A stretch of DNA of 64,000 bases. It comes from the human T2T-CHM13v2.0 reference genome, Homo sapiens. The DNA lies in the NCBI RefSeq assembly GCF_009914755.1, contig NC_060934.1; one strand, 5' to 3'. A program made the position numbers and the translations under genes. Shown piece by piece: positions 45,909-50,765 of this stretch; position 1 is the stretch's first letter; each line of letters starts with the position of its first letter. The notes under the pieces are model-generated. The model saw only the letters and a list, made by a program, of their open reading frames with translations, had not been told where the DNA came from and made no database searches.

Positions 45909-48900
45909 TCAACTTCCACTTATGAGTGAGAACATGCGGTGTTTGGTTCTCTGTTCCTGTGTTAGTTTGCTGAGAATGATGGTTTCCAGCTTCATCCATG
46001 TCCCTGCAAAGGACATGAACTCATCCTTTTTTATGGCTGTATAGTATTCCATGGTGTATATGTGCCACATTTTCTTTATCCAGTCTATTATTGATGGACA
46101 TTTGGGTTGGTTGCTATTGTGAATAGTGCCGCAATAAACATACATGTGCATGTGTCTTTATAGTAGCATGATTTATAATCCTTTGGGTATATACCCAGTT
46201 ATGGGATTACAGGGTCAAATGGTCTTTCTAGTTCTAGATCCTTGAGGAATCACCACACTGTTTTCCACAATGGTTGAACTAATTTACACTCCCACCAACA
46301 GTGTAAAAGCGTTCCTATTTCTCCACATCCTCTCCAGCATCTGTGGTTTCCTGACTTTTTAATGATCGCCATTCTAACTGGTGTGAGATGGTATCTCATT
46401 ATGGTTTTGATTTGCATTTCTCTGATGGCCAGTGATGATGAGCATTTTTTCATGTCTATTGGCAGCATAAATGTCTTCTTTTGAGAAGTGTCTGTTCATA
46501 TCCTTTGCCCACTTTTTGATGGGGTTGTTTGTTTTTTTCTTGTAAATTTGTTTAAGTTATTTGTAGATTCTGATATTAGTGCTTTGTCAGATGGATAGAT
46601 TGCAAAATTTTTCTCCAATTTTGTAGGTTGCCTGGTCACTCTGATGATATTTTCTTTTGCTGTGCAGAAGCTTTTTAGTTTAATTAGACCCCATTTGTCT
46701 ATTTGACTTTTGTTGCCATTGCTTTTGGTGTTTTAGTCATGAAGTCTTTGCCCATGCCTATGTCCTGAATGGTATTGCCTAGGTTTTCTTCTAGGGATTT
46801 TATGGCTTTAGGTCTTACATTTAAGTTTTTAATCCATCTCGAGTTAATTTTTGTGTAAGGTATAAGGAAGGGATCCAGTTTCAGCTTTCTACATATGGCT
46901 AGCCAGTTTTCCCAGCACCGTTTATTAAATAGTGTTTTTGTCAGGTTTGTCAAAGATCAGATGGTTGTAGATGTGTGGTGTTATTTCTGATGCCTTTGTT
47001 CTGTTTCATTGGTCTATATCTCTGTTTTGGTACCAGTACAATGCTGTTTTAGTTACTGTAGCCTTGTAGTATAGTTTGGAGTCAGGTAGTGTGATGCCTC
47101 CAGCTTTTTCTTTTTGCTTAGGATTGTCTTGGCAATGTGGGCTCTTTTTCAGTTCCATATGAACTTTAAAGTAGTTTTTTCCAATTCCGTGAAGAAAGTC
47201 ACTGGTAGCTTGATGGGGATAGTATTGAATCTATAAATTACCTTGGGAAGTATGGTCATTTTCACTTCCTATCCATGAGCATGGGATGTTCTTCCATTTG
47301 TTTGTGTCGTCTTTTATTTTGTTGAGCAGTTGTTTGTAGTTCTCCTTGAAGAAGTCCTTCACATCCCTTGTAAGTTGGATTCCTAGGTATTTTATTCTCT
47401 TTGTAGTAATTGTGAATGGGAGTTAACTCATGATTTGGCTCTCTGTTTGTCTGTTCTTGGTATATAGGAATGCTTGTGATTTTTGCACATTGATTTTGTA
47501 TCCTGAGACTTTGCTGAAGTTGCTTATCAGCTTAAGGAGATTTTGGGCTGAGACGATGAGGTTTTCTAAATATACAATCATGTCATCTGCAAACAGGGAC
47601 AATTTGACTTCCTCTTTTCCAATTGAATACTTTTTATCTCTTTATCTTGCATGATTGCCCTGGCCAGAACTTCCAATACTATGTTGAATAGGAGTGGTGA
47701 GAGAGGGCATCCTTGTCTTGTGCTGGTTTTCAAAGGGAATGCTTCCAGTTTTTGCCCATTCAGTATGATATTGGCTGTGGGTTTGTCATAAATAGCTCTT
47801 ATTATTTTGAGATACATTCCTTCAATACCTAATTTATTGAGAGTTTTTAGCATGGAAGGCTGTTGAATTTTGTTGAAGGCCTTTTCTGCATCTATTGAGA
47901 TAATCATCTGGTTTTTGTCATTGGTTCTGTTTATGTGATGGACGATGTTTATTGATTTGTGTATGTTTAACCAGCCTGCATCCCAGGGATGAAGCTGACT
48001 TGATCATGATGGATAAGCTTTTTGATGTGGTGCTAAATTCGGTTTGCCAGTATTTTATTGAGGATTTCCGCATCGATGTTCATCAGGGATATTGGCCTAA
48101 AATTCTCTTTTTTTGTTGTGTCTCTGCCAAGCTTTAGTATCAGGATGTTGCTGGCCTCATAAAATGAGTTAGAGAGGATTCTCTCTTTTTCTATTGATTG
48201 GAATAGTTTCAGAAGGAATGGTACCAGCTATTCTTTGTACCTCTGGTAGAATTCGGCTATGAATCCGTCTGGTCCTGGACTGTTTTGTTGGAACCTGTTA
48301 TTGGTCTATTCAGAGATTCAACTTCTTCCTGGTTTAGTCTTGGGAGGGTGTATGTGTCCAGGAATTTATCTGTTTCTTCTAGATTTTCTAGTTTATTTGC
48401 ATAGAGGTGTTTACAGTATTCTCTGATGGTAGTTTGTATTTCTGTGGGATTGGTGATGATATCCCCTTTATCAGTTTTTATTGCATCTATTTGATTCTTC
48501 CCTCTTTTCTTCTTTATTAGTTTTACTAGCAGTCTATCTATCCTGTTGATCTTTTCAAAAAACCAGCTCCTAGATTCATTGATTTTTTTGAAGGGTTTTT
48601 TTTGTATGTTTGTGTGTCTCTGGCTCCCTCAGTTCTGCTTTGATCTTAGCTATTTCTTATGTTCTGCTAGCTTTGGAATTTGTCTGCTCTTGCCTCTCTA
48701 GTTCTTTTAACTGTGATGCCAGGGTGTTGATTTTAGATCTTTCCTGCTTTCTCATGTGGGCATTTAGTGCTACAAATTTCCCTCTACACACTGCTTTAAA
48801 TGCGTCCCAGAGATTCTGGTGCATTGTGTCTTTGTTCTCATTGATCTCAAAGAACATCTTTATTTCTGCCTTCATTTCATTATTTACCCAATAGTCACTC

Positions 48901-49674
48901 AGGAGCAGGTTGTTCAGTTTCCATGTAGTTGTTCAGTTTTGAGTGAGTTTCTCAACCCTGTGTTCCAATTTGATTGCACTGTGGTCTGAGAGACAGTTTG
49001 TCGTAATTTCTATTCTTTTACATATGCTGAGGAGTTTTCTACCTCCAACCATTTGATCAATTTTAGAATAAGTGTGATGTGGTGCTCATAAGAATGTATA
49101 TTCTGTTGATTTGGGGTGGAGAGTTCTGTAGATGTCTATCAGGTCTGCCTGGTCCAGAGCTGAGTACAAGTCCCAGACATCCCTGCCAATTCTCCGTCTC
49201 ATTGATCTGTCCAATATTGACAGTGGGGTGCCAAAGTCTCCCATTATTATTGTGTGGGAGTCTAAGTCTCTTTGTAGGTCTCTAAGAACTTGCTTCATGA
49301 CCCTACCTGGGTGCTCCTGTATCGGATGCATACATACTTAGAATATGTAGCTCTTCTTGTTGAGTTGATCCCTTTATCATTATGTAATGGCCTTCCCTGT
49401 CTCTTTTGATCTTTGTTGGTTCAAAGTCTATTCTATCAGAGAGCAGGATTGCAACCCCTGCTTTCCTTTGCCTTCCACTTGCTCGGCAGATCTTCCCCCA
49501 TCCTTTCATCTTGAGCCTATGTGTGTCTTTGCATGTGAGATGGGTCTCCTGAATACAGCACACCGATGGGTCTTGCCTCTCCAACAAACTTGCCAGTCTG
49601 TGTCTTTTAATTGGGGCATTTAGCCCACTCACATTTAAGGTTAATATTGTTATGTGTGAATTTGATCCCGCCAT
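45909..49674 (-). pseudogene. ORF2: L1 ORF2p (APE endonuclease + RT), disrupted
   Basis: Fragments [58 protein letters not shown]. Confidence 0.95.
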
Positions 49675-49737
49675 CACGATGCCAGCTGGTTACGTCACCC
49701 ATTAATTGATACAGTTTCTTTATAGCATCGATGGTCT

Positions 49738-50765
49738 TTACAATTTGGCATGTTTTTGCAGTGCCTGGTACTGGTTGTTCCCTTCCATGTTTAGTGCTTC
49801 CTTCAGGAGCTCCTATAAGGCAGGCCGGGTGGTGACAAAAATCTCTCAGCATTTGCTTGTCTGTATAGGATTTTATTTCTCCTTCACTTATGAAGCTTAG
49901 TTTGGCTGGATATGAAATTCTGGGTTGAAAATTCTTTTCTTTAAGAATGTTGAATATTGGCCCCCACCCTTTTCTGGCTTGTAGGGTTTCTGCCGAGAGG
50001 TCCACTGTTAGTCTGATAGGCTTCCCTTTGTGGGTAACCTGACCTTTCTCTCTGGCTTCCCTCAACATTCCTTTCTTCATTTCAATCTTGGTGAATCTGA
50101 CAATTAGGTGTCTTGAGGTTGCTCTTCTCAAGGAGTATCTTTGTGGTGTTCTCTGTGTTTTCTGAATTTGAATGTTGGCCTGCCTTGCTAGGTTGGGGAA
50201 GTTCTCCTGGATAATATCCTGAAGAGTGTTTTCTAACTTGGTTCCATTCTCCCCATCACTTTCAGGTACACCAATCAAACGTAGATTTGGTCTTTTCACA
50301 TAGTCCCATATTTCTTGGAGGCTTTGTTCGTTTCTTTTCACTCTTTTATTTTTAATCTTGTCTTCTCTCTTTATTTCATTAATTTGATCCTCAATCACTG
50401 ATACCCTTTCTTCTGGTTGATCAAATTGGCTATTGAAGCTTGTGTATGCTTCACGCAGTTCTTGTACTGTGGTTTTCAGCTCCATCAGGTCATTTAAGCT
50501 CTTCTCTTCACTGGTTATTCTAGTTAGCCATTCGTCTAACCTTTTTTCAAGGTTTTAAGCTTCCTTGCGATGGGTTAGAATGGTTAGAAGATGCTCCTTT
50601 AGTTATTGTTATTACTGACCTTCTGAAGCCTACTTCTGTCAGCTCGTCAAACTCATTCTCCATGCAGCTTTGCTCCCTTGCTGGTGAGGAGTTGTGTTTC
50701 TTTGGATGAGAAGAGGCATTCTGGTTTTTGGAATTTTCAGGCTTTCTGCTCTGGTTTCTCCTCAT
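49738..50765 (-). pseudogene. ORF1: L1 ORF1p, frameshifted
   Basis: ORFs 50547-50765 and 49607-50485 (EIWDYVKRPNLRLIGVPE, RISYPAKLSF). Confidence 0.95.

What the first reader, a model, noticed from the sequence alone, without database searches (positions are those of the whole stretch)
48400..50080. Strand-specific A>G hypermutated tract in a full-length L1: candidate genomic fossil of ADAR hyper-edited L1 RNA
SEEN: against the recalled L1PA consensus, this tract (densest 48930-49700) has clustered T>C changes on the + strand, which are A>G on the L1 sense strand. Examples: gatcctgtcattatgatg>gatcccgccatcacgatg; ccttgttaattttctg>ccctgccaattctccg; ggtgttaaag>ggtgccaaag; ctttccatttgcttggtag>ccttccacttgctcggcag; ccatttacat>ccactcacat. 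By eye there are about 40 in 49130-49700 alone, and the rest of the element shows no such skew. The ORF track shows the same pattern: ORF2 N-terminal residues differ from the usual L1 sequence mostly by A>G-type changes (T>A, N>S repeatedly, K>R repeatedly, K>E, I>M, Y>C, Q>R, R>G, N>D). Most changed A's I checked lack a 5' G neighbour. ESTABLISHED: ADAR deaminates A to I in dsRNA, RT reads I as G, and ADAR disfavours a 5' G. APOBEC3 editing of retroelements gives the opposite change (G>A on the sense strand), and GC-biased gene conversion is not strand-specific. INFERENCE: the L1 RNA was paired with an antisense RNA over ~1.7 kb, hyper-edited and then integrated by TPRT, writing RNA edits into the germline.
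Basis: partly seen in the sequence, partly recalled or inferred. Interest (0 to 1): 0.92.

Follow-up and report, generated by a model that had tools for sequence, protein, structure and literature searches.

The report
RNA-editing fossil in ancient human LINE-1
One old, full-length LINE-1 jumping gene in the human genome carries a 1-kb patch in which about one adenine in eight has become guanine, on one strand only, likely because the RNA-editing enzyme ADAR altered its RNA before it was copied into germline DNA, which would make it a heritable fossil of RNA editing.

Summary
The full-length L1 (minus strand, about 45690-51804, 11-bp target-site duplication) has a tract at 48684-49699, with weaker shoulders to 48400 and 50080. 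After dropping alleles shared with other copies, 50 of 406 sense-strand A are G, against 2 of 181 T>C; outside the finding it is 23 of 1530. None of 58 human paralogues comes close (best 600 bp 5.7% against 18.9%). The 5' neighbour order is T>A>C≈G (p=5e-5), close to ADAR's U>A>C>G. A transversions are not raised, the changes are blind to coding, and the lineage is the same inside and outside the tract. Best reading (0.68): ADAR hyper-edited an L1 RNA paired with antisense L1 sequence, and target-primed reverse transcription fixed the edits. Against: ADAR's 3' preference is absent, no duplex partner was found, and timing is unresolved without primate orthologues. Rivals: dG:T polymerase errors (0.14) and ADAR action after insertion (0.13). 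L1 copying of ADAR-edited Alu-bearing mRNA is reported in cell lines; nine searches found no germline-fixed edited L1, but one key genome screen could not be read. New variant of a known kind.

The parts
45690..51804 (-). Full-length, now broken L1 (5' UTR, ORF1, ORF2, 3' UTR, short A-rich tail).
   Evidence: 138 of 2996 (4.6%) non-CpG differences from the closest lineage outside the tract
51805..51815 (-). Target-site duplication, 5' copy (11 bp, in the A-rich tail of an Alu monomer)
   Evidence: sequence
45673..45683 (-). Target-site duplication, 3' copy
48684..49699 (-). Core A>G tract (L1 nt about 2106-3121: inter-ORF spacer, ORF2 endonuclease domain and just beyond); 50 of 406 A changed after all exclusions
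48400..48683 (-). Weak shoulder on the 3' side, 6 of 130 A
49700..50080 (-). Weak shoulder on the 5' side (end of ORF1), 6 of 148 A
49306..49674 (-). ORF2 residues 1-123, matching human ORF2p endonuclease (E 2e-62); followed by a 4-bp insertion near 49300
49089..49298 (-). ORF2 residues 125-194; an adjacent pair of A>G changes turns N147 into G (N147 is an active-site residue by recall)

Best explanation
A full-length L1 carries a single strand-specific A>G tract of 1.0-1.7 kb that was likely written by ADAR into the L1 RNA while that stretch was paired with an unidentified antisense L1 RNA, and then likely copied into the germline by target-primed reverse transcription. Shown: the tract, its strand, its purity, its 5' context, its privacy among sampled copies, the target-site duplication and one lineage throughout. 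Established: ADAR turns A into I in long duplex RNA, and reverse transcriptase reads I as G. Inferred: the duplex (antisense transcript, or an inverted L1 piece in a longer precursor at the source locus); editing before integration; and that the ORF2p used was made before editing or supplied in trans, since the edited frame carries 41 amino-acid-changing edits, including N147G.
For: A>G 50/406 against T>C 2/181 (p=9e-7); about 4-6 expected from this copy's own background. Without 5'-C sites: 44/295 against 18/1113 outside. A>C plus A>T 5/416 against 18/1530 outside, p=1.0. 5' neighbour T 17/62, A 23/156, C 6/111, G 4/77 (chi-square p=5e-5; trend on the ADAR order p=7e-6); the published hADAR1 order is U>A>C>G (PMC3113232 passages). 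A>G in paralogues over 48400-49820 shows no such bias (1.1-1.3% for all four neighbours). Non-synonymous 41/57 against 40.5 expected, whereas older-versus-younger lineage codon differences are 23 synonymous to 23 non-synonymous. The same relatives (L003-L007, L010, L017) share minority alleles in ORF1, the tract and 3' of it. Edits are modestly clumped inside the tract (p=0.013). Deamination of the first-strand cDNA would give the opposite strand (reasoning). L1 machinery copied ADAR-type clustered changes into DNA in 3 of 235 pseudogene insertions in cell models (PMC11702581 passage).
Against: No 3' trend (G 11/83, C 5/89, A 22/159, T 12/75; rho -0.02, p=0.64), whereas hADAR1 prefers G>C≈A>U and hyper-edited human sites are 3'-G enriched. 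A 5' T/A preference also fits polymerase eta (recalled). No inverted partner for the tract inside the L1 or in the 64-kb window; only about 12 kb on the L1's 5' side could be examined. CpGs made by edits are 5 kept to 1 decayed, against 6:5 or 10:14 for inferred ancestral CpGs. That leans towards edits younger than the insertion but is not significant (p=0.33 and 0.17). Over-expressed ADAR1 or ADAR2 gave no detected edits in ectopic L1 RNA (PMC5224506, PMC8677026 passages).
Confidence: 0.68

Rival explanations
1. One burst of DNA polymerase error: dGTP inserted opposite template T along about 1 kb, by polymerase eta during gap filling or by ORF2p during second-strand synthesis with unbalanced nucleotide pools.
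For: Polymerase eta is prone to A-to-G by this route (PMC13716900 passage). Edits favour a 5' A or T: 40/218 against 10/188. The ADAR 3' preference is absent.
Against: No excess of A>C or A>T, and other mismatch types are not raised (24/960 against 157/4024). Polymerase eta normally adds A transversions and works in short patches (recalled). A 12% rate held over 1 kb is far above recalled error rates. A pool imbalance does not by itself predict T>A>C≈G.
Confidence: 0.14
2. ADAR acted after insertion: either on the minus-strand DNA in an R-loop with a + strand transcript (for example divergent from the RHOBTB1 CpG island 4-5 kb away), or on a transcript of this copy that was then written back by RNA-templated conversion.
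For: ADARs deaminate dA in DNA/RNA hybrids with their usual context (PMC5389660 abstract). Strand and context would look the same. New CpGs look slightly better kept than ancestral ones (not significant).
Against: The one local inverted L1 (13973-15468) pairs with 45677-47152, not the tract, and neither arm shows an A>G excess (5/548; 11/1044 over 45690-48399). No annotated transcript covers the tract (hub table). Efficient hybrid editing was reported at dA-C mismatches or with mutant enzyme.
Confidence: 0.13
3. No special process: the G alleles belong to an unsampled L1 sub-lineage or a converted patch, or arise from GC-biased gene conversion, CpG retention near a CpG island, or assembly error.
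For: Only 72 other copies were compared, and each search scored 40 of hundreds to thousands of candidates. 14 of the first 64 core differences proved shared or possibly shared. G>A is low in the core (1/158 against 44/827). Other human assemblies could not be checked.
Against: Best non-self hits to the dense tract are 86% (591 bp) and 88% (106 bp). Ten older copies have A at nearly all sites, and no copy among 68 shares more than 6 of 55. T>C, T>G and A>C are not raised and C>T is not lowered, unlike biased conversion. The signal stands without CpG sites. Coding-blind changes do not fit a replicating lineage. G>A is also lower there in paralogues (60/4697 against 302/14015).
Confidence: 0.05

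Closest known systems
L1-mediated processed-pseudogene insertions with ADAR-type clustered T>C (PMC11702581; passages read)
   Same: An edited RNA is copied into DNA by L1 machinery, leaving clustered A>G on the RNA-sense strand.
   Different: There: new insertions in cell models, edits confined to inverted Alus in mRNA 3' UTRs, partner known. Here: the L1's own coding RNA, about 1 kb, old and present in the reference genome, partner unknown.
APOBEC-hypermutated retroelements fixed in vertebrate genomes (PMC4866542; passages read; Carmi 2011 not held)
   Same: A deaminase-type, strand-specific, context-biased cluster laid down at one insertion, wrecking the reading frame.
   Different: Those are G-to-A on the sense strand, made on cDNA, mostly in LTR elements. 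This is A>G in a non-LTR element. 'ADAR' does not occur in the main text of PMC4866542.
Hyper-edited RNAs in the human transcriptome (PMC4365171; passages read)
   Same: Dense A-to-G clusters with 5' G depletion, in repeats.
   Different: Those are RNA-versus-genome mismatches, 3'-G enriched and mostly in Alu. Here the changes are in the genome and 3' G is not enriched.
ADAR1/ADAR2 restriction of L1 (PMC5224506, PMC8677026; passages read)
   Same: ADARs associate with the L1 RNP or RNA.
   Different: Both found no editing in ectopic L1 RNA and favour editing-independent restriction. This copy would show that L1 RNA was sometimes heavily edited and still integrated.
A-to-G hypermutated retroviral DNA attributed to ADAR (avian retroviruses; recalled, not read)
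   Same: RNA edits fixed by reverse transcription.
   Different: Exogenous retroviruses or vectors, not a germline L1.

Membership tests
ADAR hyper-editing product | Dense cluster of A>G only, on the RNA-sense strand | tested here: met
   50/406 A>G against 2/181 T>C; other types at background
ADAR hyper-editing product | 5' neighbour order U>A>C>G | tested here: met
   27%, 15%, 5.4%, 5.2%; p=5e-5; C and G not separated
ADAR hyper-editing product | 3' neighbour G enriched (weaker feature) | tested here: not met
   G 11/83, no trend, p=0.64; 17/103 if edited 3' A's are counted as G; only 50 sites
ADAR hyper-editing product | A duplex partner spanning the edited stretch | tested here: inconclusive
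   None within the L1 or the window; the source locus is unknown
Edited at the time of retrotransposition | TPRT hallmarks: full length, A-rich tail, target-site duplication | tested here: met
Edited at the time of retrotransposition | Edits private to the copy and blind to coding | tested here: met
   (72 copies compared; genome searches score only the top 40 candidates)
Edited at the time of retrotransposition | Edits shared by all primate orthologues of the insertion | not testable with these tools
   No primate genomes offered; CpG-decay proxy inconclusive
APOBEC-edited retroelement | G>A cluster on the sense strand | tested here: not met
   G>A 1/158 in the core
GC-biased gene conversion tract | Strand-symmetric rise of all weak-to-strong changes | tested here: not met
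   T>C 2/183, T>G 1/183, A>C 2/416
Polymerase eta cluster | A mutations at WA, with A transversions accompanying A>G (recalled) | tested here: inconclusive
   WA preference met (40/218 against 10/188); no transversion excess; no reference spectrum was read
L1PA7/L1PA8 subfamily | Diagnostic positions against Dfam consensus | not testable with these tools
   No repeat library; 4.6% non-CpG divergence from the closest fetched lineage

The most novel reading that the evidence does not exclude
Primate genomes hold an unscreened class of ADAR-hyper-edited L1 insertions. Each records where sense and antisense L1 RNA paired in an ancestral germ cell, and shows editing-dependent, dead-on-arrival inactivation of L1: the RNA counterpart of APOBEC-edited retroelements. 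This copy is the first example, and here the edits fall on the endonuclease domain.
Probability: 0.4. Interest if true: 0.85.

Novelty: new variant of a known kind. Interest (0 to 1): 0.72.

Why it matters
A 2016 review states that a role for ADAR in suppressing Alu retrotransposition by mutation had not been determined (PMC4982230 passage), and two cell studies found no editing in L1 RNA. A germline copy with a 1-kb ADAR-type tract would show that L1 RNA could be duplexed and hyper-edited in vivo and still integrate, so that RNA edits became inherited DNA. It makes the question testable from genomes alone: screen all L1s for sense-strand A>G tracts and date them with primate orthologues. Such tracts would also inflate divergence-based ages: this stretch matches its relatives at about 86%, but about 93% once the A/G sites are set aside. 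None of the 58 paralogues screened shows such a tract, so the process is probably rare and its effect on L1 control may be small.

Tried and rejected
Subfamily allele: one search found 27 genomic copies within 3 mismatches of an edited 26-mer. Ten of the 27 were fetched; they are more distant (78-86%), share G at 49675 and 49682, and have A at nearly all other sites. Four top hits share 2-6 alleles each. Five sites seen in them were dropped (49696, 49564, 49444, 49183, 49472); four further sites shared only by L072 were kept. Foreign patch by conversion or template switch: same nearest lineage on both sides. CpG retention: rejected. Internal L1 hairpin: no significant inverted self-match in three paralogue loci or the locus itself (best E 0.076). 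Local inverted L1: wrong part of the element, no skew. Dating by CpG decay: inconclusive; the first tally (2 of 8 decayed, p=0.05 against chance) weakened once two sites proved probable ancestral CpGs. Adjacent-edit doublets: 6 against 2.9 expected, p=0.057. APOBEC context in this copy's G>A outside the tract: none. A genome-wide screen and the flank beyond the window were not possible. Earlier scan findings were not available.
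Full report
What is there. The window holds a full-length L1 on the minus strand, about 45690-51804. 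It sits in the A-rich tail of an Alu monomer and is flanked by an 11-bp target-site duplication at 51805-51815 and 45673-45683. The ORF2 start matches human ORF2p endonuclease (residues 1-123, E 2e-62; 125-193, E 2e-30). Outside the tract the copy differs from its closest fetched lineage at 138 of 2996 non-CpG positions.

How I compared. I fetched 58 human paralogues (29 from each), later 10 of the 27 pattern hits and 4 top hits. Each genome search scored only 40 candidates, so this is a sample. Columns were counted if at least 8 copies covered them with a majority of 70% or more. The strict count also drops differences found in more than 10% of the 68 copies.

A changepoint scan gives 48684-49699 (64 of 418 A sites; ratio 41.4 against at most 11.9 in 200 shuffles). 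Strict: A>G 55/416, T>C 2/183; outside 48400-50080, A>G 23/1530 and T>C 14/782. After dropping five more sites seen in the four nearest hits: 50/406 against 2/181, p=9e-7; without 5'-C sites 44/295 against 18/1113. In all, 14 of the first 64 core differences were removed. In a leave-one-out control the 58 paralogues reach at most 5.7% A>G in their best 600 bp, against 18.9% here; the 30 that span the core have 1-13 A>G there, against 64.

It is not a subfamily trait. Best non-self hits to the dense tract are 86% and 88%. The edited 26-mer has no other match with fewer than 3 mismatches. The ten fetched hits are more distant copies that share G at two sites and have A at nearly all others. Thirty of 55 strict sites have no G in any of 68 copies, and no copy shares more than 6. 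The same relatives are nearest in ORF1, the tract and downstream, so the tract is not a foreign patch. The changes are blind to coding: 41 of 57 non-synonymous against 40.5 expected, whereas differences between older and younger lineages are half synonymous. This fits one mutagenic event on one copy.

Which process. The excess is purely A>G: A>C plus A>T are 5/416 against 18/1530, and T>C, T>G and C>T sit at background. That excludes biased gene conversion and APOBEC. The 5' neighbour matters strongly: T 17/62, A 23/156, C 6/111, G 4/77 (p=5e-5), while A>G in paralogues shows no such bias. The published hADAR1 order is 5' U>A>C>G and 3' G>C≈A>U, with the 5' base most influential (PMC3113232, abstract and passages). 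The 5' side fits, though C and G are not separated. The 3' side does not fit (p=0.64 for trend). With 50 old sites the power is low, and an edited 3' neighbour blurs the count (17/103 by present-day base), but the result stands against the reading. Polymerase eta also makes A-to-G (PMC13716900 passage) and, by recall, prefers a 5' A or T. The lack of transversions and the 12% density over 1 kb argue against it.

Mechanism proposed. Inferred: a full-length L1 RNA paired over its inter-ORF and endonuclease-coding kilobase with antisense L1 sequence. ADAR edited about one A in eight, unevenly (clumping p=0.013), as an imperfect duplex would give. ORF2p copied inosine as G during target-primed reverse transcription. 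Deamination of the first-strand cDNA would give T>C on the sense strand, so edits on this route must precede copying. The edits include N147G (active-site role recalled), yet the insertion has a normal duplication, so the working ORF2p was likely made before editing or came in trans. The partner is not found: no internal hairpin, and the one inverted L1 in the window (13973-15468) covers the 3' end, where there is no skew. It would lie at the unknown source locus or be a separate RNA.

Timing is open. No primate genomes were available. As a proxy, CpGs created by edits are 5 kept to 1 decayed, against 6:5 (strict) or 10:14 (loose) for inferred ancestral CpGs; p=0.33 and 0.17. This neither dates the edits nor excludes action after insertion. 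ADARs can edit dA in DNA/RNA hybrids (PMC5389660 abstract), and the RHOBTB1 promoter lies 4-5 kb away, so that rival keeps 0.13.

What is known. Nine searches of the held library on this question (one search was on polymerase eta) listed no paper describing ADAR-edited L1 copies fixed in a genome; I judged most by title and abstract start. Closest: 3 of 235 L1-driven pseudogene insertions in cell models with clustered T>C in inverted Alus, read as ADAR editing (PMC11702581, passages; its Fig. S8 not seen). Genome screens for edited retroelements target APOBEC G-to-A (PMC4866542, passages, 'ADAR' 0 times in the main text; supplements not seen). Carmi 2011 was not held and may include A-to-G controls. 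PMC5224506 and PMC8677026 (passages) found no edits in ectopic L1 RNA. PMC4982230 (passage) calls a mutational role of ADAR in Alu control undetermined. PMC6015446, PMC10982106, PMC13648404 and PMC6035798 (passages) describe no such copy in what I saw. Most subscription papers are outside the library.

Verdict. A real, statistically strong, so far private, strand-specific A>G tract. ADAR editing of L1 RNA before integration 0.68; polymerase error 0.14; ADAR after insertion 0.13; lineage, conversion or artefact 0.05. It works like the known deaminase-scarred retroelements but by a different enzyme and substrate, and each step has precedent, so I rate it a new variant of a known kind. Interest 0.72, because orthologue alignment and a genome-wide screen would settle a stated open question cheaply.

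Noticed in passing
window 13973-15468: A 1.5-kb 3' L1 fragment on the + strand inside RHOBTB1, inverted relative to 45677-47152 of the full-length L1 (88% identity). Read-through from the L1 into RHOBTB1 could form duplex RNA; neither arm shows an A>G excess in DNA.
   Followed up: yes
window 45659-45683 and 51805-52336: Nested insertions: the L1 lies in the tail of an Alu monomer whose own 12-bp flanking repeat is at 52325-52336 and 45659-45670; a full Alu sits next to the monomer, and the monomer's tail shows a tandem duplication of about 35 bp.
   Followed up: partly
window about 48290, 47260, 46930, 46110, 49300, 48610: Deletions of 29, 11, 20 and 10 bp and insertions of 4 and 12 bp in this L1 relative to most paralogues; the 4-bp insertion directly follows an A>G site.
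   Followed up: no
window 48684-49699: Sense-strand G>A is low in the tract (1/158 against 44/827 outside); paralogues also show a smaller dip there (60/4697 against 302/14015), so it may be partly regional.
   Followed up: partly
window 45690-51804 relative to 44729: The L1 points towards the RHOBTB1 5' end and ends about 1 kb upstream of it on the same strand, so it could have supplied upstream transcripts (hub table).
   Followed up: no
L072 (G000:C24:17641900-17642700): This copy has 13 A>G of 320 A against 2 T>C of 143 T and shares 6 G alleles with the window copy, but it is generally diverged (14 G>A, 11 C>T) and was selected for similarity.
   Followed up: partly
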